From positions 736,001 through 800,000 of the forward strand of contig JBBCGK010000001.1 in NCBI GenBank assembly GCA_037200965.1: a stretch of 64,000 bases of DNA. The letters are read 5' to 3'. The translations under genes were made by a program, and so were the position numbers. Positions 19,581 to 44,524 of the stretch are shown here, one piece after another. The first letter of the stretch is position 1; every line of letters starts with the position of its first letter. Source of the stretch: a bacterium (GTDB lineage: Bacteria > Patescibacteriota > Minisyncoccia > Phycocordibacterales > Phycocordibacteraceae). The notes below the pieces were generated by a model. It saw only the letters and a program-made list of their open reading frames with translations, was not told where the DNA came from and searched no databases.

Positions 19581-19872
19581 TCAAAAAGACAGCGGGGTAG
19601 AGGAGTGGTACCTCGGGAGGCTTGAATTATTCGGGCGTGCGCGCGAGCAATTGCGCGTAAGATCATCTGCCAAATTCGGTGAAACCCTCCTGCGCGAAAG
19701 CACAGACGGCAACGCCGAGCCAAGCCCTAAGAGCAATCGAAGGGAAGGTGTAGAGACTAGACGGTAGACATCCCGCAGGGGATGAAGGCATAGTCCAGAC
19801 CACAAATCATTCGTGCGAGAGCGGCGAAAGCCGTAGTGGTAGGCATAACCTCCAGACTCGGGTTCGAATCCC
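19581..19872 (+). tRNA. split tRNA(CAU) (Met or Ile2) gene. Exon 1 is 19581-19612, exon 2 is 19834-19872. The CCA end is not encoded
   Basis: Exon 1 supplies the acceptor strand AGCGGGG, U8, D-arm GAGG/AGUGGUA/CCUC, anticodon-stem strand GGAGG and loop CU. Exon 2 supplies CAUAA, anticodon-stem strand CCUCC, T-arm UCGGG-UUCGAAU-CCCGA and acceptor strand CCCCGCA + A73. Joining the exons gives a canonical cloverleaf with anticodon loop CU-CAU-AA. Confidence 0.75.
19613..19833 (+). ncRNA. group I self-splicing intron (IC3-like, Azoarcus tRNA-Ile intron-like) in the anticodon loop
   Basis: The intron follows a U and ends with G. It contains CAAAUUCGGUGAAACC, GGCAACGCCGAGCCAAGC and AAGGUGUAGAGACUAGACGG, recalled from memory as near-identical to the Azoarcus group I ribozyme. 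A P2-like hairpin GCGCGAGCAAUUGCGCG is present. Confidence 0.7.
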
Positions 19873-19946
19873 GACCCCGCAACAAGCTTGTGATAGTGGA
19901 ACCCAGACCGGTGCGCCTGCAAAAGCAGTTCAGTATCGGTCCGGAT

Positions 19947-27007: not shown

Positions 27008-27679
27008 TCAGCGCGCTTCGATCTTGTAGCCTCTGCCGGGCACGGTGCGGATGAGCCGGTCCTTTCCGGTGTCGCCGATTTTCTTCCGGAGGCTCAGGAT
27101 GTGCGATTCGATGGTGTTCGAGAAGATGTCGATATTCATGTCCCAGACATGCTCGAGGATCATGCCGCGGGAGAGCACGATGCCTTCGTTTTTCATGAGG
27201 TATTCGAGCAGCATAAACTCCTTGCGCGTGAGGGTGATCGATTTCTTCCCGCGCGTCACCGTGCAGCCCTTGGTGTCGAGCGTCAGGTCTTCCACCCTGA
27301 GGACTTCCTTTTCGATGGCCGCCGGACGCCGCAGAAGCGCGCGGATACGGGCTAGAAGTTCCTCGAGCGCGAAAGGCTTTGCGAGATAATCGTCCGCCCC
27401 GGCATTCAGAAGGGCGATTTTCCGGGTCGTGTCGGTTTTGACCGAGACCACGAGTATCGGCATGGTCTTGCCGCTCGCGCGTATCTCGGTGCATACCTGG
27501 AGCCCTTCCTTCTTCGGCAGCATGTTGTCGAGCACGACGAGATCGTAGTCGTTTATCCGGCCGAGATACGAACCTTTCTCGCCGTCTTCGGCGATGTCGA
27601 CCGCGAAATACTCGGACTCGAGCGAGTCCTTGAGAAAGCGGGCTATTTTCGGTTCATCTTCGACAACGAGTATTCTCAT
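27008..27679 (-). CDS. OmpR/PhoB-family response regulator
   Basis: Receiver domain (ILVVEDEP…) plus a winged-helix C-terminal domain (…RTVPGRGYKI). Confidence 0.85.
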   Translation of the reverse strand: MRILVVEDEPKIARFLKDSLESEYFAVDIAEDGEKGSYLGRINDYDLVVLDNMLPKKEGLQVCTEIRASGKTMPILVVSVKTDTTRKIALLNAGADDYLAKPFALEELLARIRALLRRPAAIEKEVLRVEDLTLDTKGCTVTRGKKSITLTRKEFMLLEYLMKNEGIVLSRGMILEHVWDMNIDIFSNTIESHILSLRKKIGDTGKDRLIRTVPGRGYKIEAR

Positions 27680-28025
27680 GCCAGGAGGTAGTTAGGTCCC
27701 GTCTTCCTCTTTATCTCGCCATCATCAGACATTGGATAGTATTTTATCACGGCGACGGTACGCTTCATATCGCCCGCTGCGTTTACGCCTCGTTTATGCG
27801 CTGATACCGGGCTCGCTCGCGCAACACCTGCCTCGAAAGAGGACGGATAGAAGCGAGCCCGATATCACCGCGCAAGCGACGCATACTCGTACCATATAGT
27901 CCGCGTTCTCCTATGGCAACTCTTAATGGTGTGGACTCGCGTATTCGCGCTCGCCGTCCTGCTATACTGAAAACCGTTCTGGTGTTGCGTACCAGCTCTA
28001 TTCCGGAGAACGGCATCCGTCGTTC

Positions 28026-31000
28026 ATGCTCTTCCTCCTTGTACGCACACTCATAAGACCGCATACGTCCCTTCGCGCCTTTCCTTCCTTGGCAGGGAAG
28101 GGCTTCCTGTTCTTGTTCGTGCTTTGGTCCTGTTCGATAAGCGCGCTGCCTGCATACGCGGCATGGGACGGACAGCCCTATGCGCCGGGCGCAACGCTTG
28201 ACCCGGAGTGCGGGCCGAGCGACTCTAATTGCAAGACGCTTGCGAGCGCGGACGCGACGACGCTTGAAGGCAGGTCCGGAAGCTATTACCTTGCCAACTC
28301 CTTCTCGACGACCTCGGCCGCGTATTTCCTTTCTGACAATCCGGGGCTCTCGTTCGCGACCACCAGTTCTGACTATTGGCTCGCGCATCGGTCCACGTCC
28401 GACCTTCCGGAAGGCTCGCGCCTCTACTACACCGATGCCCGCGCGGACGCGCGCATTCTTGCGACAACTACTCTTGCGAATATCATCTCGCTTCCGGGCT
28501 TGTCTTTGTCCGCGTCGCAGCTTACTGGCTTCGGTATTCCTTTCTACAATTTCTTTCACGCGACGACGACCGATGCGCTCGCGGAAGGTTCCCTGCATCG
28601 CTACTACAGCGACGTGCTCGCCCGCGGAGCGCTTGGCGTATCTGCCGGGGCTCTCGCGTATGACAGCGGCACGGGAATCCTTTCGGTTGCGGGCGGATAT
28701 ACGATTCCTTTATCAGCGTCCACGACGGAGTGGGGCGAGGCATATGACAACCGCATCACGTCGGCCTCGGCGCCTCTCACGATCGCGAACCGCGAGATAA
28801 GCCTCGGCATTGTTGATGCGGGGCACGGCGGCACCGGCCTCGCCTCGTACAATCCGGGCGCACTTCTGTATGCCGATGCCGACGGAAACCTCACGACGCT
28901 TTCGCCCGGTTCTTCCGGTACCGTGCTTAAGATCGCGGGCGGCGTCCCGACCTGGGGCACGGATCTTTCAAGCGGCGGCGGGGGAGGAGCCGTAGCCTGG
29001 GCGACGACATCCGACAGCCTCGCGATCTATCCGATGGACAGCACGAACGTCGTCATCGTGGGCGCAAGCGCGACATCGTCGGCGACGAGCGTCTTTGAAG
29101 TGCACGGGAGGTCGTATTTCACGACCAATGTCGGCATCGGCACGACTTCTCCGCTCTCGGCGCTTTCCGTCGCGGGGAGCGGCTTCTTCACCGGCAACCT
29201 GACTTCGGCCAATATCACCGCCACCGGAACGCTTTCAGTCTCGGGTGCTGGCACGTCGACGTTTGCCGGGCCGTTCTTAGCAGGGAATCTTGCGGTCGCC
29301 GGACTTCCCGCGGGCCTTATAAAGGCCGGGGCGGGCGGGTATCTCCGGGGCGCCGTCGCGGGAACGGATTATTTCGATCCTGCCGCGTTCGGTTCAACTT
29401 TCTATTCTTTTTTTCACGCGACGACGACCGATGCGCTTGCCGAAGGTTCGGTGCATAAGTATTGGAGCGATACGCTCTTCGACAACCGCCTCTCCGCGAC
29501 CACGTCGCTTCCGGGCCTCTCTTCCATCGGTTCGTATACCGGGCTCATCGGCGCGAACAACGGTTCCATGTACCAAATCGCCACTTCGACCAACTTCGTG
29601 ACATCGATCGCGGCCGCATACCCGCTCTCCGTTTCCGGACCAGCCGGGGCGGTGACAATCTCGACCGCGCTCGCTACCACCACATTCCAGCACTCATACG
29701 GTTCCGCGCAGATCGGACAAATCATCCTTGCCACTTCAAGCGCGGCAACGAGTAACGGCATCACGGTGGGGCAGACCATCACGAACTCCGGCGGCGTCTT
29801 CACGTTCGCTCCGGCGGTATCCGTATCGAACATCCCCAATGCCGCCCTGCAGAATTCCGCCGTCACCGTCAACGGCACCCTGATCCCGCTTGGCGGCTCG
29901 GGTACTGTCGCCGCCGCTTCTTCCACGCTCCTTGGAGATAACAATACTTTCTCGGGCGGCAATACGTTTTTGAGCACCATCACCGGCTCCGTTTCTGGCA
30001 ATGCCGGCACCGTTACGAACGGCGTATACACGACTACTTTCGGCGGCCTTTTCGACAACCGCCTCTCCGCGACCACGTCGCTTCCGGGCCTTACGGCGGT
30101 TTCGTCCGGCCTCACGGGCGTCCTTAAGGCGGCGGCGGGCTCTCTCTCGGCGGCGGCACCGGGGATCGATTTCGAAAATCCGCTTTCGTTCCTCTATCCG
30201 CTCGCGCGCACCGCAAACAGCGTAAGCCTTGCCTTCGGGACGACAACTTCAAACACTTGGGGAGGAACCCAGACTTTCACCAACAACCCGATACTCGGCA
30301 CTCTCACCGGTCTCTTCTACGGAAACAACGGATCGCTTGCGGCGACGGCGACATCCTCCGTCACCAGCGGCACCGGCATCGGCTTTTCAGGCACGCCGGG
30401 AGCGCTTGTCGGCGGTACTCCGCTTACGATTACGAATACCGGCGTGACGTCGAATATTGCCGGGACCGGCATCAGCGTCTCGGGCGCGACCGGCGCCGTT
30501 ACGATAAGCGCGGCGAACGTGCCGAACAGCGCGCTTGAGAACTCGACGATCGGGCTTGCTTCGGGCGACTCCTCCCTTACGGTTTCCGGCTCGCCCGCCT
30601 CTCTTGGAGGCTCGCTTTCCGCCTCCCTTAACACCGCGCATCCGAATACGTTCACCGCGCTTCAGCAATTCAGCGCAAATGCGTCGACGACGGGAATCTC
30701 TTCTTCGTATGCGTCCTCGACCAAAGCCTTCCTTGGAAGCCTGTCGATAGGGAATCTGACCGGCATCCTGCGCGCGGCCGGGGGTGCCGTATCGGCCTCG
30801 CTCGTGTCCCTCGCTTCCGACGTGACCGGAGTGCTCGGCGTTATAAACGGCGGGACGGGATGGGATTCGATACAGTCCGGCAGCATCCCGTACGGAAACG
30901 GCGCCGGGGCGCTCGCCACCACGAGCCCGGGAACCAACGGGCAGACGCTCGCGCTTGTCGCCGGAGTTCCGGCCTGGATCGCGACGACAACCGCGGGCAC

Positions 31001-34000
31001 CGGCCTTACGTATTCCGGCGGCAGCTTCAATGTGAATACGGCGCAGAATGTCGCGAAGCTTTCGAACCTCACGGGGAACGGATTCGTCAAAACTATAAAC
31101 GGCGACGGCACGCTTTCGGTCGATACCAATACCTACCTCGCCTCCATTGGTCCCGCAGGACAAAGCCAGAGCGGTCCTGCGGTCGCCATTGCCTCCTCGA
31201 CCGATTCTGCGACCGGCCTTATCTCGGGCGTCGTGATAACCGGAAGCGCGAATACGCTTACCTGGAAGGCCGTGCTCTCCGGCGTCTTGAGTGCCGCAAA
31301 CGGCGGCACCGGATCGACGACGCTTTCGGGAATCCTCAAAGGAAACGGCACGGGAGTGCTTATGACCGCGGTTCCGGGAACCGACTATCAGGCGGCGGGG
31401 AACTATCTCACCGCGCTTACCGGTGACATCTCCGCGTCGGGTCCGGGTTCCGCCGCCGCGACGCTCGCGACCGTGAACGCGGATACGGGGTCGTTCGGGG
31501 GTTCGACCGCCATCCCGACTTTTGTCGTAAACGGGAAAGGGCTCGTCACATCCGCGGGCACCGCGGCGGTTATCGCGCCCGCGGGAACGCTCACCGGAAC
31601 CGTACTTGCTTCGAACATCCTCGCTTCTTCGCTTACATCCGTCGGAACGCTCGGCACGCTCTCCGTTTCCGGCCAGGCTTCGCTTGCGGGCGCGAGCTCG
31701 ACCGCCTTTTCCTCGTCCTATGCGTCTTCGACCAGTGCGTTCTTCGGAAACCTGTCCGTCGGAAGTCTTTCGGGAATACTGCGCGCGACCGCCGGAGCGG
31801 TCTCCGCGGGCGCGGTGAATCTTGCCTCGGAAATATCCGGGATGCTCGGCGTCGCAAACGGCGGCACGGGCGCGGGCTCGTTTGCGGCAGGCTCCCTCAT
31901 CTACGGAAACGGTACGGGCCCGCTTCAGAGCGCCGCGACCTCGTCCGTTTCAAACGGCGCTGGCATCTCGGTCTCGGGCGCCGCCGCCGTGGTCGGGAGC
32001 GGGGGACTCACCATCACCAACACGGGCATCACGTCCGTCACGCCGCAATTCGGTGCGGCCATCAGTAACGGCGGGCTAACCGTCGCGTCCTCGACGGCGG
32101 GCACCGACTTTTCGATAACCGGATCGGGAAGCACGATCACGTTCAATCTTCCGACCGCGTCTGCCGCAAACCGCGGCTTGCTTTCCTCCGCCGACTGGAG
32201 CGCCTTCAGCGCCAAGCAGGGCGCGCTTACGTTCGCGTATCCGCTCCAGAATAGCGCGAATACCGTATCGCTCGCCTTCGGGACGACGACCGCGAATACC
32301 TGGGGACCGGTGCAAACTTTCACGAACGTTCCCGTGCTCGGCACTCTTTCGGGAATCATTTATGGGAATAACGGATCGCTTGCCGCGACCGCCACTTCGA
32401 CGCTTGGCGTCGCGCTTGCGGACACTACGGGCTCGCTCCCGGTCGACCGGGGAGGCACCGGATCGACGACGCTCGGCGGCATTTTGAAGGGAAACGGAAC
32501 TTCCGGCATCGCGACCGCCGTCCCCGGCATCGATTATCAGCCCGCCGGGAGCTATCTCACCGGCAACCAGACGGTTACGCTTTCGGGCGACGTCTCGGGA
32601 AGCGGCGCCACTTCGATCACGACCGCGATCGGGGCGGGGAAGGTGACGAATGCGATGCTCCTGGGCGCTATTGCCGCCGCGAAGCTCATCGGAACCGATA
32701 TCACGACCGTCGGGACGATCGTAAGCGGCGTGTGGCAGGGCTCCGTGATCGGATCAGCCTACGGCGGGGCGGGAGCCGTAAGCGGAATACTCAAAGCGAA
32801 CGGTTCCGGCAACGTCTCCGCCGCCTCCGCCGGAACCGACTACGTCGCTCCGAACTCCTCGCCCACATTTGCGGGCCTCACGCTCCTAAGCGCGCTTCCC
32901 GTCGCAAGCGGCGGGACGGGCTGGAGCGCGATACAGTCCGGCAGCATCCCGTACGGAAACGGTTCCGGTGCCCTCGCGACTACCTCGAGCGGGGCGGCGG
33001 GGAGCGTGCTCGCGCTTGTCGCCGGAGTTCCGGCCTGGGTCGCGACGACCACGTTCTCCACGGGCCTTACGTATACGGCCGGAAGCGTGACCGTGAACAC
33101 CGCACAGAGCATCGCGAAGCTTTCGAACCTGACAAGCAATGGATTCGTCAAAACTATAAACGGCGACGGCACGCTCTCGGTCGATACGAACACCTACCTC
33201 GCCTCCATTGGTCCCGCAGGACAAAGCCAGAGCGGCCCCGCAATTACGATCGCAACTTCGACCGCGGGAACCGACATATCGGTGACGGCTTCCGGCAATA
33301 CGATCACGTTCAACCTCCCGACCGCATCTGCCGCAAACCGCGGCTTGCTTTCCTCGTCCGATTGGACGACATTCAACGGCAAAGTGTCGACCGGCGCGTT
33401 CACATCCTCCGGCCTCACCCTTTCGACCGGTAAGCTTCTCGGAAGAAGTTTGGACGGTACGGGAGCGGCCGAAGAGATAACGGTCGGGAGCGGCCTCTCT
33501 CTTTCTGGCGGGACTCTCTCCGCGTCTGGGAGCGGCATCAGCGCACTTGGTCCTTCGGGACAAACCCAAAGCGGTGCGACGGTCACCATTGCCACCTCGA
33601 CAAGCCTTGCAAACGGCGTCACGTCCGCGCTTGTGGTCGTGGGTTCTTCGAACACGCTTATGTTCACTCCTTCCGTTTCCGGCGTGCTCACGGTTCCTGG
33701 GGGAGGCACCGGTGCCGGTACGCTCACGGGACTCGTTTCGGGAAACGGCACGAACGCTTTCACCGCGACCGCGAACGGCGCAAACGGCCAGGTGCTTGCT
33801 ATGTCCGCCGGAGCGCCGACCTGGGTCGCAACGACCACGTTCTCGACCGGACTTACGTACACGGCGGGCACGGTGACGGTCAACACGGTGCAAAGCGTCA
33901 CGAAGCTTTCGAATCTCGCCACGAACGGATTCGTGAAAACGATCAACGCCGACGGCACGCTCTCGATCGACACCAACACCTATCTCACCTCTGCCCTCAC

Positions 34001-35105
34001 CTCAATAGGTCCCGCCGGTCAGGTACAGAACGGCCCGGCTATCGTTATCGCCACCTCGACGACCGCATTTAACGGCATTACGGTGGGCGACACGATAACC
34101 GGTTCGGGGAACACGCTTACGTGGAAGCCCAGCTGGAGCGGTTCGCTCAGCGTCCCTGGCGGCGGCACGGGGGCGACTTCGTTCGGGCAGGGCTGGATAT
34201 TCTCAAGCGGCGGCACGGGTGCCCTTGCTGCCTCGACAAGCCCGACCGTGAACTATCTTATCGCCACCTCGACGACCGCCGCTTCGATCTTCAATTACCG
34301 CGTCGGCATCGGTACGAACGCCCCCGCAACCGCGCTTGACGTGAACGGCGATATCACGATCGAGACCTTGACCTGCAACACATCGCTCGTCGGACTGGGC
34401 ACCGACGCGAACGGCAAGATCTATTGCAAGAGCGTCGTAGGTTCCGATGAGCGGCTTAAGTCGAATATCGAAAGTCTCGGCGACGAAAATGGCCTTGCTC
34501 TCATAGACTCGCTGCGCCCTGTCTCCTATGACTGGAAGGACCCGAACGTGTATGGCGGCATGTCCGGCCTCCAGTACGGGTTCATCGCGCAGCAGGCGCT
34601 TTCTGCCGCGCCGACTCTCGTCGGCACGACGTCGCCGACAGAACTGACGCCCGACGTCACGTACACGTTCAACTATTTCGGCCTCATCGCGCCCCTCGTG
34701 AAAGCGACACAGCAGCTTGACGCGCGGTTCGGCGCGATTGCTTCAACGAGCGCGGATGCGTCTCCGACGTCTTTTGCTCAGGCATTCTTTGGCCGTCTTC
34801 GGGAATGGTTCGCCGACGCGGCAAACGGAATCGAGGACTTCTATGCGAATCGTGTCCATACTTCGCAACTATGCTTAGCAGTCTCCGGCGGGGAAGAGGA
34901 ATGCTTTACGGGCGACGAGCTGAAAGCCCTTAAGGAGAAAGCCGGACAGCATGACAAGGTTCCGCCGCCCGGCATCGGGCCTGTCATCATCGAGGATGTT
35001 CCGCCGCCGGACACCACTGCCTCATCGTCCGAGCCGGAATCAGAAGCCGCTGCGGCTATGCCAGTGCCTCCCGATCCCGCTACTGACTTACCCGCGCCCG
35101 AGTAA
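28026..35105 (+). CDS. giant (2359 aa) secreted surface protein, Gly/Thr/Ser-rich repeat region, C-terminal intramolecular-chaperone (peptidase S74-like) domain and Pro-rich tail
   Basis: Signal-peptide-like N-terminus, then an AAWDGQPYAPGATLDPECGPSDSNCK module. Long near-identical internal repeats. C-terminal VVGSDERLKSNIESL…LRPVSYDWK…GFIAQQ resembles the autoproteolytic tail-fibre chaperone domain, followed by a PPPG/PPPD tail. Confidence 0.8.
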   Translation: MLFLLVRTLIRPHTSLRAFPSLAGKGFLFLFVLWSCSISALPAYAAWDGQPYAPGATLDPECGPSDSNCKTLASADATTLEGRSGSYYLANSFSTTSAAYFLSDNPGLSFATTSSDYWLAHRSTSDLPEGSRLYYTDARADARILATTTLANIISLPGLSLSASQLTGFGIPFYNFFHATTTDALAEGSLHRYYSDVLARGALGVSAGALAYDSGTGILSVAGGYTIPLSASTTEWGEAYDNRITSASAPLTIANREISLGIVDAGHGGTGLASYNPGALLYADADGNLTTLSPGSSGTVLKIAGGVPTWGTDLSSGGGGGAVAWATTSDSLAIYPMDSTNVVIVGASATSSATSVFEVHGRSYFTTNVGIGTTSPLSALSVAGSGFFTGNLTSANITATGTLSVSGAGTSTFAGPFLAGNLAVAGLPAGLIKAGAGGYLRGAVAGTDYFDPAAFGSTFYSFFHATTTDALAEGSVHKYWSDTLFDNRLSATTSLPGLSSIGSYTGLIGANNGSMYQIATSTNFVTSIAAAYPLSVSGPAGAVTISTALATTTFQHSYGSAQIGQIILATSSAATSNGITVGQTITNSGGVFTFAPAVSVSNIPNAALQNSAVTVNGTLIPLGGSGTVAAASSTLLGDNNTFSGGNTFLSTITGSVSGNAGTVTNGVYTTTFGGLFDNRLSATTSLPGLTAVSSGLTGVLKAAAGSLSAAAPGIDFENPLSFLYPLARTANSVSLAFGTTTSNTWGGTQTFTNNPILGTLTGLFYGNNGSLAATATSSVTSGTGIGFSGTPGALVGGTPLTITNTGVTSNIAGTGISVSGATGAVTISAANVPNSALENSTIGLASGDSSLTVSGSPASLGGSLSASLNTAHPNTFTALQQFSANASTTGISSSYASSTKAFLGSLSIGNLTGILRAAGGAVSASLVSLASDVTGVLGVINGGTGWDSIQSGSIPYGNGAGALATTSPGTNGQTLALVAGVPAWIATTTAGTGLTYSGGSFNVNTAQNVAKLSNLTGNGFVKTINGDGTLSVDTNTYLASIGPAGQSQSGPAVAIASSTDSATGLISGVVITGSANTLTWKAVLSGVLSAANGGTGSTTLSGILKGNGTGVLMTAVPGTDYQAAGNYLTALTGDISASGPGSAAATLATVNADTGSFGGSTAIPTFVVNGKGLVTSAGTAAVIAPAGTLTGTVLASNILASSLTSVGTLGTLSVSGQASLAGASSTAFSSSYASSTSAFFGNLSVGSLSGILRATAGAVSAGAVNLASEISGMLGVANGGTGAGSFAAGSLIYGNGTGPLQSAATSSVSNGAGISVSGAAAVVGSGGLTITNTGITSVTPQFGAAISNGGLTVASSTAGTDFSITGSGSTITFNLPTASAANRGLLSSADWSAFSAKQGALTFAYPLQNSANTVSLAFGTTTANTWGPVQTFTNVPVLGTLSGIIYGNNGSLAATATSTLGVALADTTGSLPVDRGGTGSTTLGGILKGNGTSGIATAVPGIDYQPAGSYLTGNQTVTLSGDVSGSGATSITTAIGAGKVTNAMLLGAIAAAKLIGTDITTVGTIVSGVWQGSVIGSAYGGAGAVSGILKANGSGNVSAASAGTDYVAPNSSPTFAGLTLLSALPVASGGTGWSAIQSGSIPYGNGSGALATTSSGAAGSVLALVAGVPAWVATTTFSTGLTYTAGSVTVNTAQSIAKLSNLTSNGFVKTINGDGTLSVDTNTYLASIGPAGQSQSGPAITIATSTAGTDISVTASGNTITFNLPTASAANRGLLSSSDWTTFNGKVSTGAFTSSGLTLSTGKLLGRSLDGTGAAEEITVGSGLSLSGGTLSASGSGISALGPSGQTQSGATVTIATSTSLANGVTSALVVVGSSNTLMFTPSVSGVLTVPGGGTGAGTLTGLVSGNGTNAFTATANGANGQVLAMSAGAPTWVATTTFSTGLTYTAGTVTVNTVQSVTKLSNLATNGFVKTINADGTLSIDTNTYLTSALTSIGPAGQVQNGPAIVIATSTTAFNGITVGDTITGSGNTLTWKPSWSGSLSVPGGGTGATSFGQGWIFSSGGTGALAASTSPTVNYLIATSTTAASIFNYRVGIGTNAPATALDVNGDITIETLTCNTSLVGLGTDANGKIYCKSVVGSDERLKSNIESLGDENGLALIDSLRPVSYDWKDPNVYGGMSGLQYGFIAQQALSAAPTLVGTTSPTELTPDVTYTFNYFGLIAPLVKATQQLDARFGAIASTSADASPTSFAQAFFGRLREWFADAANGIEDFYANRVHTSQLCLAVSGGEEECFTGDELKALKEKAGQHDKVPPPGIGPVIIEDVPPPDTTASSSEPESEAAAAMPVPPDPATDLPAPE

Positions 35106-36745: not shown

Positions 36746-36960
36746 GTTCTTAAGTATACCTGTGGTCAAAGTCTTATCCCCACGCGAATCATAGGAGGCC
36801 GCGCGCCTGCGGCTATACTTCAAGTACCACGGTGTTGCGCACCGAGTCTCTCCGGACCCGAAAGGGAGTGGTCCGCGTCATGCGCACCCAAACGCTCAAG
36901 CGATTCAGTCTTTATAAACATATCTCCGCGAAGCGGGGCTAACTTCATATATACCGGCGT

Positions 36961-37500
36961 ATGCGCCGCACTCGTCCTATGGCAGCTAAGAATGAAAAGA
37001 TGGATATAGATGTCTCCGAGCCAGTGCCCGAAGCGCCGTGGCCTCCGGCCGCGCCGGGACCAAGGAACGGGCGCAGGATGCGGCGCGGATGGTCCAAGAT
37101 TCTCGCCGCGCTCATCCTGGTCCTCGTCCTCGCCGCGCTTGCGTACTATTTTGTGCAATACCAGCGCCTCAGCCGCGACCCGGCGGTGGTCGCGCGGGCC
37201 GAAGACGCGAAAGTCATACAGGAACTTTCGAAGGTGATGGTGGTCCCGAACGATCCGAGCCCCGTCATTGCGACCGTGTCCGACAAAAGCAAGCTTGCCG
37301 ACCAGCCTTTCTTCGCGCAGGCGCAAAACGGCGACCAGGTCATCATCTTCCCGGTTTCGATGAAAGCCGTGCTCTATCGTCCGTCGGCCCGAAAAATAAT
37401 CGACATCGCGCCGCTTGCAACCGGTGCCTCGGCGTCTGCCGCCGCCCCGTCTCCCGTACCCGCAAAGGCGAAGGCGGCCGCGACGAGCACGACTCCTTAA
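36961..37500 (+). CDS. hypothetical membrane-anchored protein (first gene of a 5-gene + strand operon)
   Basis: One TM helix and an Ala/Pro-rich C-terminus. The antisense ORF is R-rich. Confidence 0.45.
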   Translation: MRRTRPMAAKNEKMDIDVSEPVPEAPWPPAAPGPRNGRRMRRGWSKILAALILVLVLAALAYYFVQYQRLSRDPAVVARAEDAKVIQELSKVMVVPNDPSPVIATVSDKSKLADQPFFAQAQNGDQVIIFPVSMKAVLYRPSARKIIDIAPLATGASASAAAPSPVPAKAKAAATSTTP

Positions 37501-37504
37501 ACGC

Positions 37505-38689
37505 ATGAATATCCGACTCGGCACCATTTCGCTCGTCGCACTCATTTTCTTTTCCTTCGCGCTTCCCGCGTTCGCGTCGGAAACATCCGGAACGGTGCTC
37601 GATTCGCAGAAGTTCGGATGGGGCGACAAGATCGGGTGGATCAATTTCGCACCGACCGACGGCTCCGAGTACGTCGGCCTCGTGATCACCGACAGCGCGG
37701 TGACGGGCTTCGCGTGGAGCAGGGATTTCGGATGGATACGGTTCGATCCGCCGAATTCCGGACAGGGGGTTACGAACACGCCGGAAGGCGTTCTTGGCGG
37801 TTCCGCATGGGTCGCGTCGCTCGGATGGATATCGATGGAGGGCGTAACGATAAATCAAAACGGCGAGTTCACGGGCATCGCCGGAGTCGCTGGCACCGAT
37901 ACCGCGCGTATTTCCTTCGATTGCTCGCGGTGCGGCGTGCAGACTGACTGGCGCCCGGCATCCGTGCGAGGCGGCGGCGGAAACAACGGGGGAGGCAGCG
38001 GCAACAACGGGCGTTCCGGCAGTTCCGTTCCGGACGCATCCTCGCCAGAACCCTCCTCAAGCGGTGGCGGGATCGGTATCGTGCCGTTCTTTCAGAACTT
38101 ATTTACGGGCATCTTCGGCGCAGCTCCCGGGACGAACGCCGGTACCGCTGGCGCGGCGGGCGCTGCCGTTCCGAACAGCCTGTTCGACATTTCGCTCGCG
38201 CTTGAAAAGAGCGTCGTGCCCGCAGGCGAGCCGCTCGTCGCGCTCGTCTCGTTCGCGAACTTCGGAAAGGTTACTACCGCGGCCGACCTCGCCTTCTCCA
38301 TCGTCAACGGCGAGGGAACCGTATTCGCGACATCGACCGCGCGCACGAGCGTCGAAACCGAGAACCTCGTGCGGCAGACGTTTGCTACGACGGCATTCTC
38401 TCCCGGAACGTACTGGATAAAGCTCAGGGTCACGTACGGTTCGCCCGTCATCACCGAAGACTTCAACCAGCAGTTCACAATCACGGCCGCGCAGACGTTC
38501 GCCGGGCGGTGCGGGTTCCCGTGGCCGCTGTCGTATGCCGTGGATCACATCGCGTTCCTCGCCTGGTTCGGCTGTGTATTCCCGTGGATCATCATTATCG
38601 TCACGATACTGATGATCGTCGCTCTCTTCTATTATCTTGTTCATCCGCGTGGAAAGGACCGGCATGCGGCCCGCGCTTTCTCCCGATGA
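37505..38689 (+). CDS. secreted protein with triplicated GW-containing repeats, Gly/Ser-rich linker and C-terminal TM anchor
   Basis: Signal peptide MNIRLGTISLVALIFFSFALPAFA. Repeats FGWGDKIGWINF / FAWSRDFGWIRF / SAWVASLGWISMEG. The C-terminal TM segment is hydrophobic. Confidence 0.6.
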   Translation: MNIRLGTISLVALIFFSFALPAFASETSGTVLDSQKFGWGDKIGWINFAPTDGSEYVGLVITDSAVTGFAWSRDFGWIRFDPPNSGQGVTNTPEGVLGGSAWVASLGWISMEGVTINQNGEFTGIAGVAGTDTARISFDCSRCGVQTDWRPASVRGGGGNNGGGSGNNGRSGSSVPDASSPEPSSSGGGIGIVPFFQNLFTGIFGAAPGTNAGTAGAAGAAVPNSLFDISLALEKSVVPAGEPLVALVSFANFGKVTTAADLAFSIVNGEGTVFATSTARTSVETENLVRQTFATTAFSPGTYWIKLRVTYGSPVITEDFNQQFTITAAQTFAGRCGFPWPLSYAVDHIAFLAWFGCVFPWIIIIVTILMIVALFYYLVHPRGKDRHAARAFSR

Positions 38690-39693
38690 AGTACCTGCGC
38701 ATCACGATAACGGCAGGACTTCTGTTTCGCGGTCTTGCGCTCCTGCTCGTCATTCTCGCGGTCTCGCTTACGATCCACGAGTGGGCGCTCATGGCCGAGC
38801 GGGACCACCTGTACCAAGCGGCCGCGAACGAAGCCCTCGATGAGCGGCTCGAGTCTGTCGGCGACGGGCTCACGGAGGTTTTCGCGAGCGCTCGTGAAGG
38901 GCTCCGGTCGCTTTCGTCCGTACTCGCGGTCTATTCGGGAGTATCTGACGGCCGCGCGGGCGCCGAACAGGCGCTCCGCATCGCGCGGGACGCCCACCCC
39001 GAGTATTATTTCGTTCGTTATATAGGCGCGGACGGGTCCGCGTTCGTCACGCTTTCGCCGCCCGGCATGTCGGTGGGGGACGAGACGGTATTCGATGCCG
39101 GATTCGACGGCCTCCTGCAGGACGCGCAAAATTCAATCACCGGGGACATTCTCGTGTCGGGGCTCTCGTGGTATCCCGTCATCGGCGGCACGAAGATTCC
39201 GCTCGTGTATGCAATTACGCCGGTTGTGGCGGCAGGGAAAACGTACGGATATCTCGAAGTGGCGCTTGATATACGCAACTCGTTCACGGCGGTGACGCAG
39301 GCGCAGCGCGCCGAAGACGTCCTGTTCCTTCTGGATAGCGAAGGGAAATACCTTGTCGCGCCGCACGGTACGCCAGTTCCGGAAGATACGGTCACGAGCC
39401 GGTATCCAAAAGAGGTGGTTGACCACCTGTACGGGCCGGACACAGTCGGTGCCTTCACGTACGGCGATCGGGTCTTCGCGTATGAGCACTTGCGGACGAC
39501 CGGCGTCGGCATGCGGTCGGGTGATCCCGAATTTTGGGTGCTCGTCAGCGTGTCCGATACCCGCTCCGTCTTCAGCGCGGCGCGGCGCGCGAGAAACGAA
39601 TCGGTCTTTTCCCTGGCCGTGTTCCTTCTGCTTGCGGGTCTCGCCGGCCTCTTGGTGTACCGCCTGCGCATGATGCTGCACACTCATCTATGA
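38686..39693 (+). CDS. membrane protein with periplasmic Cache-like sensor domain and no output domain
   Basis: ATGA coupling. An N-terminal TM and a C-terminal TM bracket a ~270-aa extracytoplasmic domain. Confidence 0.5.
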   Translation: MKYLRITITAGLLFRGLALLLVILAVSLTIHEWALMAERDHLYQAAANEALDERLESVGDGLTEVFASAREGLRSLSSVLAVYSGVSDGRAGAEQALRIARDAHPEYYFVRYIGADGSAFVTLSPPGMSVGDETVFDAGFDGLLQDAQNSITGDILVSGLSWYPVIGGTKIPLVYAITPVVAAGKTYGYLEVALDIRNSFTAVTQAQRAEDVLFLLDSEGKYLVAPHGTPVPEDTVTSRYPKEVVDHLYGPDTVGAFTYGDRVFAYEHLRTTGVGMRSGDPEFWVLVSVSDTRSVFSAARRARNESVFSLAVFLLLAGLAGLLVYRLRMMLHTHL

Positions 39694-40187
39694 AGCGGAT
39701 CCTGAAGCTGTCGGCGGGCCTGGGTGCGGTCCTGCTGTGCGCGGGTATCGTTCCAGCATCCGTACATGCGGCGAGCGTGGCGCTTTCCATCCCCGACCGG
39801 TACGCGCAAGTGGATCCCGACGACCGTTTTTACTACCAGCTTAACGTCCTGTATCCGGAAAACGTCCAGCGGAGGGACCTCACCGTCACTTACCGCGTCG
39901 AGGAGGGGCAGGCGACGATCGTCAGCGGCCAGTACCTGCGGGCAGTCGAGACGCAGGCATCCTTCTCCGATTACATCGTCATTCCGACCGACGCCCGGGA
40001 AGGCCTCCATACGATAGAGATCGCGGTCACCGACGGCGACAAGCCGCTCGCGCAGGTGAGCGGAAGCTTCCAGGTCAATCCGCAGGAAGACTGGGTCATG
40101 ATCTACTTCTCGATACTTCTTGCCGCCGTGCTGCTGGTCGGCGTCGGCCTGTTCGTCGAGATCCTTATCGTGTCCCGCCGCGCATGA
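39690..40187 (+). CDS. secreted hypothetical protein with C-terminal TM anchor
   Basis: ATGA coupling and signal peptide MKRILKLSAGLGAVLLCAGIVPASVHA. Confidence 0.5.
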   Translation: MKRILKLSAGLGAVLLCAGIVPASVHAASVALSIPDRYAQVDPDDRFYYQLNVLYPENVQRRDLTVTYRVEEGQATIVSGQYLRAVETQASFSDYIVIPTDAREGLHTIEIAVTDGDKPLAQVSGSFQVNPQEDWVMIYFSILLAAVLLVGVGLFVEILIVSRRA

Positions 40188-40291
40188 CTTGTCCACACCG
40201 CGAATGCTTGAACGGGACAGGTGCTGCTAGACTCAAGAGTGTTCCGGTGTTGCGCACCGCATCTGTCCCGGGGACGATTAATTCTCGTCTC

Positions 40292-43288: not shown

Positions 43289-44122
43289 TTGGTTTGGGAG
43301 CAGCGCGCCACGCTATTCATGAGATTGTCGTTCCCCATTCGTTTTTTGTTTGTTCTGCTCGCAGCGGCAGTCCTGTCGGGGCTGTCGGTTCCTATGGAGC
43401 GGGCTTTTGGCGCGAACCAGGAAGACGGTATCCGGGCGACAGCCGCGAGCCTCGTATCCCGCGTGGCGCCCGGCGGGACGCTCTCGTTCTCGCTCACGCT
43501 TCTTAACTTCGGCACGGCGCGCCGGGCCGATGTCGTCATCACATACCGGATACTCGATGCGGCGGGCGCCGAAGCCTATTCGCAGCAGGAGACCGTCGCG
43601 GTCGACACGACCGCGAGCGTTGTGCGGCACGTGGAAGTGCCGGGGACCCTCGCGCCCGGACGCTATACGCTCGAAAGCGAAGCGCGCTATCCCTTTCAGG
43701 AAGCGCCCGCCGTCTCCCGCTTCTCGTTCACCGTCGAGCGCGCGTATCTGGGCGTCTATATCACGGACTGGCTCCGATACGGCGGCCTCGCCCTTCTTCT
43801 GGCGCTCGCGTCGTTTATCGGCGGCCGGCTCCTCATCCGGGCCAGGGCCCGCCGCGCCGTGCTCCATGACTACGCGGACAAGCCCAAAGACGAACGCATC
43901 TATTACGAAATCATAAGCGACACCGTAAGCCAGATGCGCCAGCGGGCGGGCGACCGGGCGCTTGAGATCGCGGCGAAAACGAAGGGTCTTTCCATCGATT
44001 CCGATACCGGCAAAGTTCTCAAAATCACGGAGAACCCCGCGCAAGTCGTCGCGGCGCTCGTGTCCGGGTACGAAGCGGCGCTCGGGAAGAAGGTGAGCTT
44101 CGCGCTCAGAAAGAACGGCTGA
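43289..44122 (+). CDS. hypothetical secreted/membrane protein
   Basis: Signal-like N-terminus (MRLSFPIRFLFVLLAAAVL, internal start possible at 43319) and a TM segment. Confidence 0.45.
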   Translation: MVWEQRATLFMRLSFPIRFLFVLLAAAVLSGLSVPMERAFGANQEDGIRATAASLVSRVAPGGTLSFSLTLLNFGTARRADVVITYRILDAAGAEAYSQQETVAVDTTASVVRHVEVPGTLAPGRYTLESEARYPFQEAPAVSRFSFTVERAYLGVYITDWLRYGGLALLLALASFIGGRLLIRARARRAVLHDYADKPKDERIYYEIISDTVSQMRQRAGDRALEIAAKTKGLSIDSDTGKVLKITENPAQVVAALVSGYEAALGKKVSFALRKNG

Positions 44123-44140
44123 TCACGTAATCCATATTCT

Positions 44141-44524
44141 ATGAACCAAAAAACCATACTCATCGTCGAAGACGAAAAAGATATCAGGGAAGCGCTTCGG
44201 GACATGCTCGCCGACAAGGGATACCGCGTCCTTGAGGCCGGAAACGGGCGGGAAGGCGCGGCAAGCGCTCTTGCCGAGCACCCCGACCTCATCCTTCTCG
44301 ATCTCCTCATGCCCGAAGTGGATGGCATGACAGCGCTCGGACAGATCCGGGAGGATTCGTGGGGGAAGGGCGCATCCGTCATGATCCTCACGAACGTGAA
44401 CGCGAGCAGCGAACAGGTCGTCAAGGATATCGTGACGCACAAGCCGCTTGAATACCTCATCAAGTCGGACTGGAAGATCGCCGATGTCCTGAGGAAAGTC
44501 GAGCGGGTGCTCGCGGGGAAGTAG
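44141..44524 (+). CDS. single-domain response regulator (CheY-like receiver)
   Basis: ILIVEDE…ILLDLLMPEVDG… It is a paralogue of 8196-8579. Confidence 0.8.
   Translation: MNQKTILIVEDEKDIREALRDMLADKGYRVLEAGNGREGAASALAEHPDLILLDLLMPEVDGMTALGQIREDSWGKGASVMILTNVNASSEQVVKDIVTHKPLEYLIKSDWKIADVLRKVERVLAGK

What the first reader, a model, noticed from the sequence alone, without database searches (positions are those of the whole stretch)
28157..28235. Shared N-terminal module (AAWDG-PY-P…TLDPEC-P…C) in both giant proteins, conserved even at nucleotide level
Right after the predicted signal peptidase site, both giants start with AAWDGQPYAPGATLDPECGPSDSNCK and AAWDGNPYEPEETLDPECSPNQGQCRI (nt 40401-40478). 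Each has two Cys positioned for a disulfide. Further shared blocks follow (…YYTDARA…, …YDSGTGILSVAGGYTIP…). This looks like a common anchoring or sorting domain (for example, docking to a basal structure) in otherwise different fibres.
Basis: seen in the sequence. Interest (0 to 1): 0.5.

Follow-up and report, generated by a model that had tools for sequence, protein, structure and literature searches.

The report
N-terminal handle of Patescibacteria surface fibres
Both giant proteins start, just after their export signal, with the same 25-residue two-cysteine loop. This loop is an undescribed, very widespread "handle" on secreted fibres of ultrasmall Patescibacteria that resemble phage tail fibres, and it most likely holds the fibre to the cell's own surface.

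Summary
Both giants (28026-35105 and 40292-43282) carry a Sec-type signal peptide ending in AxA, followed by AAWDG.PY.P..TLDPEC.P....C (16/26 residues identical; BLASTP E = 8e-10).

The conservation is at protein level. Nucleotide identity is 64%, and only 42% at third codon positions.

The module is not private to this genome. A profile search found 1,292 protein clusters, nearly always with the match at residues ~22-70. A DNA-pattern scan reached its 120-locus limit, almost entirely in Patescibacteria MAGs, and found nothing in 2.9 million viral contigs.

Core consensus: Y-x-P-G-[EQD]-T-L-[ND]-P-x-C-x-P-x4-C-x-V. It has no Pfam, NCBIfam, PHROG or PDB counterpart.

Carriers are fibre-like. 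23 of 41 have Peptidase_S74; others have YadA-head or lectin domains.

Paralogues within a genome share the N-terminal cassette but have unrelated bodies.

Neighbourhood is conserved. A secreted, envelope-anchored "GW-repeat" protein (window 37505-38689) lies on the same strand in 34 of 120 module loci. Giant 1, the 36961 operon and giant 2 share a leader motif, GGTGTTGCGYACC.

Best reading (about 0.4): a cell-proximal anchoring handle, possibly docking on the GW protein. A structural disulfide cap is the main rival. The "YYTDARA / YDSxTG" blocks are generic tail-fibre repeats.

The parts
28026..35105 (+). Giant 1 (2359 aa): secreted tail-fibre-like protein carrying the module.
   Evidence: ORF and translation. 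Peptidase_S74 at residues 2140-2199, E = 8.8e-14. Internal dispersed repeats.
28026..28160 (+). Predicted Sec signal peptide of giant 1 (M1-A45, cleavage AYA|A).
   Evidence: Basic n-region, hydrophobic core GFLFLFVLWSCSISAL and an AxA site, read from the translation. Inferred; no predictor was run.
28161..28235 (+). N-terminal Cys-loop module of giant 1 (AWDGQPYAPGATLDPECGPSDSNCK). This is the finding.
   Evidence: Matches the family consensus from 251 unique instances.
34443..34622 (+). Peptidase_S74 intramolecular-chaperone domain of giant 1, including SDERLK.
   Evidence: Pfam hit. The Ser..Lys motif is visible in the translation.
40292..43282 (+). Giant 2 (996 aa): secreted tail-fibre-like protein carrying the module.
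   Evidence: Identical to database protein P0001, 'tail fiber domain-containing protein'. Peptidase_S74, E = 1.3e-19. PHROG tail-fibre families match residues 168-943.
40292..40402 (+). Predicted signal peptide of giant 2 (M1-A37, cleavage AHA|A).
   Evidence: Translation. Inferred from sequence features.
40403..40477 (+). N-terminal Cys-loop module of giant 2 (AWDGNPYEPEETLDPECSPNQGQCR).
   Evidence: AF2 model pLDDT is about 77-81 over the first 30 residues.
42821..42988 (+). Peptidase_S74 domain of giant 2 (SDERLK).
37505..38689 (+). GW-repeat protein. Signal peptide, about 130-aa domain with three or more G[YF]AW....GWI.F hairpins ending F.C..C.V.TDWRP, Gly/Ser linker, beta-sandwich, C-terminal TM helix. 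Candidate envelope partner of the fibres.
   Evidence: Homologues lie in 34/120 module loci, all on the same strand. Homologues P0266-P0294. AF2 pLDDT 78, about 90 in the GW domain. No Pfam, NCBIfam or PHROG hit.
36961..37500 (+). Small single-pass membrane protein, first gene of the operon.
   Evidence: Homologues in 9 module loci, all on the same strand, and directly upstream of GW genes in L121, L202, L222 and L232.
38686..39693 (+). Two-TM protein with a Cache-like extracytoplasmic domain. Its start overlaps the GW stop by 4 nt.
   Evidence: Weak dCache_1 and HK_sensor hits. Same position in L121.
39690..40187 (+). Secreted beta-sandwich protein with a C-terminal TM helix. Its start overlaps the preceding stop by 4 nt.
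   Evidence: Translation. Clusters with 43289-44122 and with ORFs in 5 loci. Same position in L121.
43289..44122 (+). Second beta-sandwich plus TM protein, immediately after giant 2.
27981..27993 (+). Leader motif GGTGTTGCGTACC, 12 nt after a TATACT -10-like box (27963-27968), upstream of giant 1.
36831..36843 (+). Same leader motif GGTGTTGCGCACC after TATACT (36814-36819), upstream of the 36961 operon.
40246..40258 (+). Same leader motif GGTGTTGCGCACC after TAGACT (40228-40233), upstream of giant 2.
27008..27679 (-). OmpR-type response regulator, divergent from giant 1.
   Evidence: Pfam Response_reg plus Trans_reg_C. About 72% identical syntenic orthologue next to the GW and fibre genes in L065, a Paceibacterota MAG.
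44141..44524 (+). Stand-alone receiver-domain protein at the end of the cluster.
   Evidence: Pfam. Response regulators recur in 13 module loci.

Best explanation
The module is the conserved mature N-terminus (a 'handle') of a very large, Patescibacteria-specific family of Sec-exported fibrous surface proteins. These proteins are built from phage-tail-fibre parts.

Proposed mechanism, with shown and inferred steps marked:
1. The precursor is exported by its signal peptide and cut at the AxA site (inferred from sequence).
2. The C-terminal Peptidase_S74 intramolecular chaperone trimerises the chains, drives folding of the fibre and then cuts itself off at SDERLK. The domain is shown here; its behaviour is taken from what is known of endosialidase and tail-fibre S74 domains.
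3. The roughly 25-residue N-terminal loop is stiffened by a Cys-x-Pro-x4-Cys disulfide (inferred). It stays at the cell-proximal end and fastens the fibre to a constant component of the cell's own envelope.
4. The best candidate for that component is the membrane- or wall-anchored GW-repeat protein, which is encoded in the same co-regulated locus (inferred from synteny only).
5. The variable body and tip, with lectin-like and fibre repeats, would contact the host or prey cell.

In effect, the virion-attachment N-terminus of a phage tail fibre has been replaced by an export signal plus a cell-attachment plug.
For: 1. Position. In about 143 of the best 150 hits among 1,292 profile hits, and in about 117 of 123 DNA-pattern hits, the motif lies directly after a signal peptide. 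In 250 of 251 unique instances the Tyr lies 0-17 residues after the hydrophobic core.

2. Conservation. Positions not fixed by the search pattern are near-invariant across CPR lineages (G 97%, T 99%, L 95%, V 96%), while synonymous sites differ. This fits a self component as partner better than variable host receptors.

3. Carrier architecture. 23/41 have Peptidase_S74, 4 have YadA_head, and others have lectin-type domains. PHROG tail-fibre models cover giant 2 residues 168-943 but not the N-terminus.

4. Cellular origin.

5. Constant handle, variable body. For paralogue pairs within one genome, the signal peptide plus module is 0.49-1.00 identical (median about 0.76). The next 300 aa are about 0.34 identical, close to the random-pair value of 0.29. 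This is the pattern seen in tail fibres, whose N-termini bind the baseplate.

6. Neighbourhood. A GW-repeat gene lies in 34/120 module loci (each 8 kb or less). All 31 that were scored for orientation are on the same strand, and they are usually adjacent. L124 is arranged GW-fibre-GW-fibre, and L121 keeps the whole operon order. By contrast, response regulators in the same loci are on mixed strands.

7. The GW proteins are themselves envelope-tethered, by a TM helix, PG_binding_1, CarboxypepD_reg or dockerin tails.

8. Co-regulation. The motif GGTGTTGCGYACC occurs three times in 64 kb, exactly upstream of giant 1, the 36961 operon and giant 2 (0.12 expected). It is conserved in orthologous loci.
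Against: No direct evidence exists for binding, anchoring or a disulfide.

The GW association is partial. About 29% of module loci contain a GW gene. Only 9 of 115 GW loci (7 of 34 at 8 kb or longer) contain a module gene. GW genes also occur outside CPR and next to other protein classes. Giant 1 itself has no adjacent GW gene.

Adjacency could simply reflect a shared 'surface' regulon.

The aromatic hairpin repeats of the GW domain resemble glycan- or teichoic-acid-binding repeats. That would suggest a wall- or host-binding role rather than a socket for the fibres.

The orientation of the fibre on the cell is unknown. The Pro/Glu-rich C-terminal tails could be the wall-associated end.

The AF2 model of the module is only moderately confident and monomeric.
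Confidence: 0.4

Rival explanations
1. Structural cap or trimer staple. The two cysteines form intra- or inter-chain disulfides that lock the three N-termini of the trimeric fibre together. This would resemble the cystine knots of collagens and collectins. There would be no separate binding partner.
For: C-x-P-x4-C is invariant in all instances. Carriers have trimeric architectures, S74 and YadA_head. AF2 closes the segment into a compact loop, with a bridge between Tyr8 and residue 27. Folding nucleated at the C-terminal S74 domain leaves the N-terminal end most in need of a clamp (inference).
Against: Many non-Cys positions are equally invariant (Y, P-G, T-L, P, V), which is more than a staple needs. 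A staple does not explain the strict placement within a few residues of the signal-peptidase site. It also does not explain the conserved neighbourhood or the shared leader. Phage homologues of the same fibres do without it. This rival is not exclusive with the anchoring model.
Confidence: 0.25
2. Export or maturation signal. The motif just after the cleavage site is recognised by a processing, modification or sorting enzyme, such as a dedicated signal peptidase, a glycosyl- or acyl-transferase, or a wall-linking transpeptidase. This would be analogous to YSIRK signal peptides, lipoboxes or sortase signals.
For: The motif sits within 0-17 residues of the hydrophobic core in 250/251 instances. 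Paralogues in a genome keep the signal peptide and the module together as one cassette. The conserved Asp/Asn/Thr/Pro-rich sequence could be a modification site (inference).
Against: No candidate enzyme recurs in the neighbourhood. The recurring neighbours are the GW protein, small TM proteins, Cache and beta-sandwich TM proteins and regulators. There is no lipobox Cys at +1, no LPXTG and no prepilin motif. A disulfide loop is unusual for a linear recognition signal.
Confidence: 0.12
3. Recombination handle. The conserved 5' leader, signal peptide and module are kept alike within a genome mainly by gene conversion or cassette swapping. The shared 5' end would serve as the homology arm that lets variable fibre bodies be exchanged.
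For: Within-genome N-terminal cassettes reach 84-100% identity while the bodies are unrelated. The leader DNA is conserved between the two giants. Giant 1 contains dispersed internal repeats.
Against: In this window the module is only 64% identical at DNA level, with 42% identity at third codon positions. The peptide consensus also holds across phylum-level distances. Selection therefore acts on the peptide. Recombination may spread the module but does not explain why it exists.
Confidence: 0.1
4. Distal ligand-binding tip. The N-terminal loop is the far end of the fibre and binds a host-cell or environmental ligand, while the C-terminal Pro/Glu-rich tail holds the protein in the wall.
For: In Gram-positive surface proteins and trimeric autotransporters the N-terminus is distal. 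Many family members end in Pro/Glu/Thr-rich tails like wall-spanning regions. The acidic/amide-rich Cys loop could bind a cation or a sugar (inference).
Against: A host-binding tip should vary with the host. This is instead the most conserved part of the proteins across all CPR lineages. The variable, lectin-containing parts lie further along the chain. The S74 domain, with its Ser-Lys motif intact, is expected to cut off the C-terminal tail. No LPXTG or TM anchor is present at the C-terminus.
Confidence: 0.08

Closest known systems
Phage tail fibres and tailspikes with a C-terminal intramolecular chaperone (Pfam Peptidase_S74; e.g. K1F endosialidase, T5 L-shaped fibre, long-tail-fibre distal subunits)
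   Same: Both giants have a Peptidase_S74 domain with the SDERLK Ser-Lys motif. Giant 2 residues 168-943 match several PHROG tail-fibre families and a solved long-tail-fibre distal subunit (6f45). Shared fibre repeats such as YYTDAR..YDSxSG..GYxIP occur in phage-like proteins.
   Different: The context is a cellular genome with no phage genes nearby. The proteins carry a Sec signal peptide and the Cys-loop module in place of a virion-attachment N-terminus. The module was found in none of 2.9 million viral contigs, and no PHROG covers it.
Short conserved N-terminal attachment regions of fibres (adenovirus fibre tail motif FNPVYPY docking on penton base; constant N-terminal baseplate-binding part of tail fibres and R-type pyocin fibres). 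Recalled from general knowledge.
   Same: A short, Pro/Tyr-rich, highly conserved N-terminal segment sits on otherwise variable trimeric fibres. Within a genome the pattern is constant handle, variable body.
   Different: There is no sequence similarity. The module here contains a disulfide loop and follows a signal peptide. The partner is unknown; the GW protein is only a candidate from synteny.
Cysteine knots at the ends of trimeric fibrous proteins (FACIT collagen CxxxxC junction, collagen III, N-terminal Cys region of collectins). Recalled from general knowledge.
   Same: Two closely spaced invariant cysteines lie at one end of a probably trimeric fibre.
   Different: The spacing (C-x-P-x4-C) and surrounding consensus are unrelated. 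Inter-chain bonding was not tested. The proteins are bacterial and extracytoplasmic.
Signal-peptide-associated sorting motifs of monoderm surface proteins (YSIRK/GS signal peptides, KxYKxGKxW, lipobox, LPXTG/sortase)
   Same: A conserved motif is tied to the export signal of large surface proteins and is lineage-specific.
   Different: The motif lies after, not within, the signal peptide. There is no Cys at +1 and no C-terminal LPXTG/TM. No NCBIfam model matches.
Aromatic hairpin-repeat wall- or glycan-binding domains (choline-binding CW_binding_1 repeats, Listeria GW modules), as a comparison for the partner GW-repeat protein
   Same: Repeated roughly 20-residue Gly/Trp-rich beta-hairpins in a secreted, envelope-associated protein.
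   Different: There is no Pfam hit even at E up to 10 and no PDB sequence relative. Fold searches matched only its beta-sandwich domain. The resemblance is by motif pattern only.

Membership tests
Peptidase_S74 (intramolecular-chaperone) tail-fibre/tailspike proteins | C-terminal Peptidase_S74 domain above Pfam gathering score | tested here: met
   52 bits and 70.7 bits against a cut-off of 22. 23/41 other module carriers also match.
Peptidase_S74 (intramolecular-chaperone) tail-fibre/tailspike proteins | Catalytic Ser...Lys motif at the cleavage site | tested here: met
   SDERLK is present in both giants. Cleavage itself cannot be tested with these tools.
Peptidase_S74 (intramolecular-chaperone) tail-fibre/tailspike proteins | Part of a virion: phage or prophage gene context, N-terminus attaching to tail or baseplate | tested here: not met
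   Neighbours are two-component regulators, a methyltransferase, an M23 peptidase and membrane proteins. The N-terminus is a signal peptide plus the module. The module is absent from viral contigs.
Sec-dependent secreted proteins cleaved by signal peptidase I | n-h-c signal peptide with small residues at -3 and -1 | tested here: met
   AYA|A and AHA|A follow hydrophobic cores. Consensus F-A at -8/-7 relative to Tyr in 251 instances. Judged by inspection only; no SignalP was run.
Bacterial lipoproteins | Lipobox with Cys at +1 | tested here: not met
   No Cys at the cleavage site. The first Cys is 17-18 residues into the mature protein.
Sortase (LPXTG) anchored surface proteins | C-terminal LPXTG followed by a hydrophobic segment and a basic tail | tested here: not met
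   The C-termini are Pro/Glu-rich and end ...DLPAPE and ...DAPVATP, with no LPXTG or TM. The same holds for most family members.
Trimeric autotransporter adhesins (YadA type) | C-terminal YadA-like membrane anchor | tested here: not met
   Pfam found no YadA anchor in either giant. YadA_head repeats occur in 4/41 relatives.
Type IV pilins / pseudopilins | Class III signal peptide (G|F/M-T-L-x-E) and a hydrophobic N-terminal helix in the mature protein | tested here: not met
   The signal peptide ends AxA, and the mature N-terminus is polar, AWDG....
Any curated domain family covering the N-terminal module | Match to a Pfam-A, NCBIfam, PHROG or PDB sequence | tested here: not met
   No hit over the N-terminus at E up to 0.01. 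None for the isolated fragments at E up to 10. None in PHROGs. The only PDB profile hit is a chance match at E = 1.3.
Patescibacteria N-terminal Cys-loop fibre family (defined here) | Y-x-P-G/E-x-T-L-x-P-x-C-x-P-x4-C-x-V within about 20 residues of a signal peptide | tested here: met
   Both giants match. Giant 2 has E in place of G, and the residue after the second Cys plus one is T/I rather than V.

The most novel reading that the evidence does not exclude
Patescibacteria, and some other bacteria, may have a general 'plug-and-socket' system for mounting secreted fibres on the cell surface. Short conserved motifs at the mature N-terminus would act as plugs. At least three classes were seen next to GW genes: the Cys-loop class found here, a GSLxPPxxP..MYxLxxIY class, and a WTGPxxAPPxGNxxAPxNVG class. 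The envelope-anchored GW-repeat proteins would be the sockets. This would be a previously unrecognised surface-anchoring mechanism that lets these episymbionts display interchangeable host-binding fibres derived from phage tail fibres.
Probability: 0.2. Interest if true: 0.8.

Novelty: new variant of a known kind. Interest (0 to 1): 0.6.

Why it matters
Patescibacteria (CPR) are thought to live attached to other microbes, and how they recognise and hold their hosts is largely unknown beyond type IV pili. In the papers I could search, adhesins are mentioned only generically.

This module marks a very large, multi-copy, CPR-wide family of secreted proteins related to phage tail fibres. These proteins have hypervariable, lectin-bearing bodies, which makes them prime candidates for host-recognition fibres. 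The module therefore gives:
- a simple sequence tag for finding such proteins in any CPR genome;
- a testable hypothesis for how fibres that lack LPXTG, TM or lipid anchors are kept on a monoderm-like cell;
- a candidate partner (the GW-repeat protein) and a shared regulatory leader that define a surface-fibre regulon;
- an example of phage tail-fibre parts recruited by cells through replacement of the N-terminal attachment region.

If the module is only a structural cap, it is still a useful, undescribed family signature, but of modest interest.

Tried and rejected
1. The word-index protein search with a 47-aa alignment of the two N-termini found nothing, because the query was too short for the index. 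The exhaustive profile search replaced it.

2. Looking up P0001 in the contig index gave no record. The organism was therefore placed indirectly, through about 72% identical syntenic genes in a Paceibacterota MAG and the taxonomic spread of the DNA-pattern hits.

3. I checked whether the module could be a prophage or phage feature. This was rejected: the gene context is cellular and there are no hits in viral contigs.

4. I checked whether it is low complexity or chance. This was rejected by shuffles and by the positional consistency.

5. I checked whether it results from recent gene conversion between the two giants. This was rejected by the divergence at third codon positions.

6. The YYTDARA and YDSGTG blocks are not part of the module. 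They are not collinear and are widespread in proteins lacking a signal peptide.

8. AF2 of the module region gives a moderately confident compact loop.

9. The exact leader pattern was absent from the fetched loci. A mismatch-tolerant search then found it in orthologous loci.

10. Literature searches for CPR together with tail fibre, S74 or giant proteins found no description of this motif.
Full report

The window is 59% G+C cellular DNA. Two long + strand ORFs are present.
- Giant 1: 28026-35105, 2359 aa.
- Giant 2: listed from 40184, but its real start is 40292. From there it is 100% identical over its full 996 aa to a database protein named "tail fiber domain-containing protein [bacterium]", carried on a 960-kb contig.

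Each begins with a basic/hydrophobic signal peptide ending AYA|A or AHA|A. After it come AWDGQPYAPGATLDPECGPSDSNCK and AWDGNPYEPEETLDPECSPNQGQCR respectively.

BLASTP of the two proteins aligns this stretch on its own with 17/28 identities and E = 8e-10. A regular expression for the core matches only these two sites in the six-frame translation of the window, and matched none of 200 shuffles.

The codon-aligned stretches are 28158-28235 and 40400-40477.

At DNA level the stretch is 64% identical. Third codon positions are only 42% identical, and half of the conserved residues use different codons. The conservation is therefore on the peptide. What is conserved as DNA lies upstream, in the leader (section 5).

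The other shared blocks are real, but they sit at different positions in the two proteins. They also occur in many tail-fibre-like proteins that start without a signal peptide. They are ordinary fibre repeats.

**2. What are the two proteins?**

- Both end in a Pfam Peptidase_S74 domain, the intramolecular chaperone of endosialidases and tail fibres. E-values are 9e-14 and 1e-19, and the SDERLK Ser-Lys motif is present.
- PHROG tail-fibre families match giant 2 between residues 168 and 943. None covers the N-terminus.
- One solved long-tail-fibre distal subunit is a weak sequence relative.
- The neighbourhood is not phage-like. It contains histidine kinases, response regulators, a ThiF-like protein, a methyltransferase, an M23 peptidase and membrane proteins.

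**3. How widespread is the module?**

*Profile search.* From the homologues of giant 2 I extracted nine further variants and built a 41-position profile. An exhaustive HMMER search of 1.84 billion cluster representatives gave 1,292 hits at E up to 1e-3 and 67 at E up to 1e-10. In essentially all of the best 150, the match lies at residues ~22-70, straight after a signal peptide. The exceptions are three repetitive false positives and a few proteins with over-long predicted starts.

*DNA-pattern scan of genomes.* A back-translated pattern was scanned against one genome per prokaryotic species and stopped at its 120-locus limit. About 117 of 123 matches are true N-terminal modules. Nearly all records are Patescibacteria/CPR MAGs: Nomura-, Kaiser-, Adler-, Taylor-, Vogel-, Magasanik-, Shapiro-, Doudna- and Gracilibacteria, Paceibacterota and Saccharibacteria. 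A few records are vaguely or perhaps wrongly labelled.

*Viral contigs.* The same pattern has no match in 2.9 million viral contigs.

*Consensus.* From 251 unique instances, the core is Y-x-P-G-[EQD]-T-L-[ND]-P-x-C-x-P-[GT]-[D]-x-[ND]-C-x-V. The prefix is either "VW[DNS]G.[FP]", "APP[GT]SP", or almost nothing. The Tyr lies 0-17 residues after the hydrophobic core in 250 of 251 cases.

*Database status.* No Pfam, NCBIfam, PHROG or PDB sequence matches the module, even at permissive thresholds. I found no description of it in the searchable literature.

*This organism.* It is most likely a Paceibacterota-like member of Patescibacteria. A Paceibacterota MAG (L065) has a ~72% identical response regulator in the same arrangement with a GW gene and a module-bearing fibre.

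**4. What do the carriers have in common?**

Of 41 full-length carriers scanned with Pfam:
- 23 have Peptidase_S74;
- 4 have YadA-head repeats;
- single members have PA14, F5/8 type C, H-type lectin, GLEYA, or an endosialidase catalytic domain.

Many end in Pro/Glu/Thr-rich tails. They are therefore fibrous, probably trimeric, adhesin-like proteins.

Several genomes carry two or three copies. For paralogue pairs within one genome, the signal peptide plus module is 49-100% identical (median about 76%). The next 300 residues are about 34% identical, close to the 29% seen for random pairs. The two giants of this window follow the same rule: 48% against 32%. This is a constant handle on a variable body.

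**5. Neighbourhood and co-regulation**

*Forward test (from module genes).* I clustered all ORFs of the 120 module loci, each 8 kb or less. The largest non-fibre family is homologous to window gene 37505-38689. An HMM of its N-terminal domain finds it in 34 of the 120 loci and exactly once in the 64-kb window, between the two giants. In the 31 loci where orientation was scored, it is always on the same strand as the fibre gene, and it is usually the immediate neighbour. Response regulators in the same loci are on either strand.

*The GW protein.* Its parts, in order, are:
- a signal peptide;
- a ~130-residue domain of G[YF]AW....GWI.F hairpins, ending F.C..C.V.TDWRP;
- a Gly/Ser/Pro linker;
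- a variable envelope-tethering tail.

In this window the tail is a beta-sandwich plus a TM helix. Elsewhere it is PG_binding_1, CarboxypepD_reg with TM segments, or dockerin-like repeats. AF2 models the GW domain at pLDDT about 90. Fold searches matched only the beta-sandwich.

*Other recurrent neighbours.* These are the small TM protein 36961-37500 (9 loci), the beta-sandwich TM proteins 39690-40187 and 43289-44122 (5 loci), and response regulators (13 loci).

*Conserved gene order.*
- In L121 the order is: giant-1-like gene, small TM, GW, Cache-TM, beta-sandwich-TM, fibre.
- In L124 the order is GW-fibre-GW-fibre, and both fibres carry S74 and module variants.

*Reverse test (from GW genes).* Of 115 GW loci from metagenomes, 9 contain a module gene. 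Among loci of at least 8 kb the figure is 7 of 34. All are on the same strand. The link is therefore strong but not obligatory.

GW genes also sit beside two other classes of secreted proteins that have their own conserved post-signal-peptide motifs. Fifteen of the 34 long loci have one of the three classes.

*Shared leader.* GGTGTTGCGYACC lies 11-12 nt downstream of a TA(T/G)ACT box. It occurs three times in the window: upstream of giant 1, of the 36961 operon and of giant 2 (0.12 expected by chance). The same leader precedes the orthologous genes in L121 (twice), L122 and L012. It can form a small 5' hairpin with one covarying pair.

**6. Mechanism**

Shown:
- a signal-peptide-proximal, disulfide-capable, near-invariant peptide;
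- on fibre proteins derived from tail-fibre modules;
- in cellular genomes only;
- a constant N-terminus on a variable body;
- encoded with, and apparently co-regulated with, envelope-anchored proteins.

Inferred (confidence about 0.4): after export and S74-driven trimerisation, the module stays at the cell-proximal end and fastens the fibre to a constant self component. The GW-repeat protein is the leading candidate.

The argument for a self partner rests on three points.
- The conservation extends across lineages that presumably have different hosts.
- The pattern parallels tail fibres, whose conserved N-termini bind the baseplate.
- No other anchor is present (no LPXTG, TM or lipobox).

Rivals:
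- a purely structural disulfide cap or trimer staple (0.25; compatible with anchoring);
- a processing or modification signal (0.12);
- a recombination handle (0.10);
- a distal binding tip (0.08).

**7. Comparison with known systems and novelty**

The bodies and C-termini of these proteins belong to the S74 tail-fibre family by domain criteria, but they fail its virion-context criterion. The module belongs to no curated family.

Functionally, the closest analogies are the N-terminal attachment segments of viral fibres and the cysteine knots of trimeric collagen-like proteins. There is no homology to either.

I rate it a new variant of a known kind: an N-terminal attachment or capping element of a fibre. 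It is also a new and very large sequence family.

Interest is moderate to high for people working on CPR host attachment. It would be higher if the plug-and-socket idea proves right.

Noticed in passing
window 27959-28025, 36810-36882, 40224-40291; also L121:1438-1540, L121:4880-4965, L122:1705-1795, L012:6597-6700: Conserved promoter/leader. A TA(T/G)ACT box is followed 11-12 nt later by the invariant GGTGTTGCG(C/T)ACC, which can form a 5-6 bp 5' hairpin with one covarying closing pair. A variable hairpin then sits just before the start codon (GAACG/CGTTC, GACGA/TCGTC, GCGAAC/GTTCGC in different loci). The element marks three transcription units of the fibre locus and is conserved in other genomes. 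It may be a regulator site or an mRNA element.
   Followed up: partly
window 37505-38689 and loci L126-L245: The GW-repeat domain (G[YF]AW....GWI.F hairpins ending F.C..C.V.TDWRP) is itself an unannotated, widespread family. It has varied envelope-tethering tails and extends beyond CPR, for example to high-GC loci L142 and L227 and to giant proteins in L153 and L169.
   Followed up: partly
L135, L158, L187, L199, L219, L230, L233 (class C); L154, L169, L227 (class B): Two further conserved motifs occur directly after signal peptides in genes adjacent to GW genes, on the same strand. Class C is WTGPxxAPPxGNxxAPxNVGxxxQxKxG. Class B is GSLxPPxxP....MYxLxxIY. GW proteins may therefore pair with several classes of secreted proteins that carry an N-terminal motif.
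   Followed up: partly
window 34740-35105 (giant 1 C-terminus) and alignment A5: Downstream of the S74 domain, many family members share another two-Cys block (A.NGI...F.....T..LC.........C.....L..LL) followed by a Pro/Glu/Thr-rich tail. Giant 1 has it (TSQLCLAVSGGEEECFTGDELKALKEKA), but giant 2 has only the Pro-rich tail. Function unknown. The block would be released if S74 self-cleaves.
   Followed up: no
window 19591-19883 (+): The Rfam group I intron hit (19614-19815, 58.8 bits) lies inside a tRNA gene. The exact splice junction and tRNA identity are ambiguous.
   Followed up: partly
window 28530-34050 (within giant 1): Giant 1 contains several dispersed direct repeats of 78-257 nt at 63-85% identity (for example 30947-31203, 33008-33264 and 33794-34050). 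This is consistent with growth of the fibre by internal duplication.
   Followed up: no
window 38686-38689 and 39690-39693: Successive genes of the 36961 operon overlap by 4 nt (ATGA-type start/stop overlaps) between GW and Cache-TM, and between Cache-TM and beta-sandwich-TM. This suggests translational coupling.
   Followed up: no
L122:6474-14579: The relative that carries the closest homologue of giant 2 (P0002) encodes cytochrome oxidase subunits COX1-4, a UbiA-type prenyltransferase (PF01040) and haem biosynthesis genes next to the fibre gene. This is unusual for Patescibacteria, if that contig really belongs to one.
   Followed up: no
window 36880-36942: Right after the leader of the 36961 operon there is a short ORF, MRTQTLKRFSLYKHISAKRG. 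Its first codons (ATGCGCACC) resemble the start of giant 2 and of fibre genes in other loci. It could be a upstream ORF or a remnant of a fibre 5' end.
   Followed up: no
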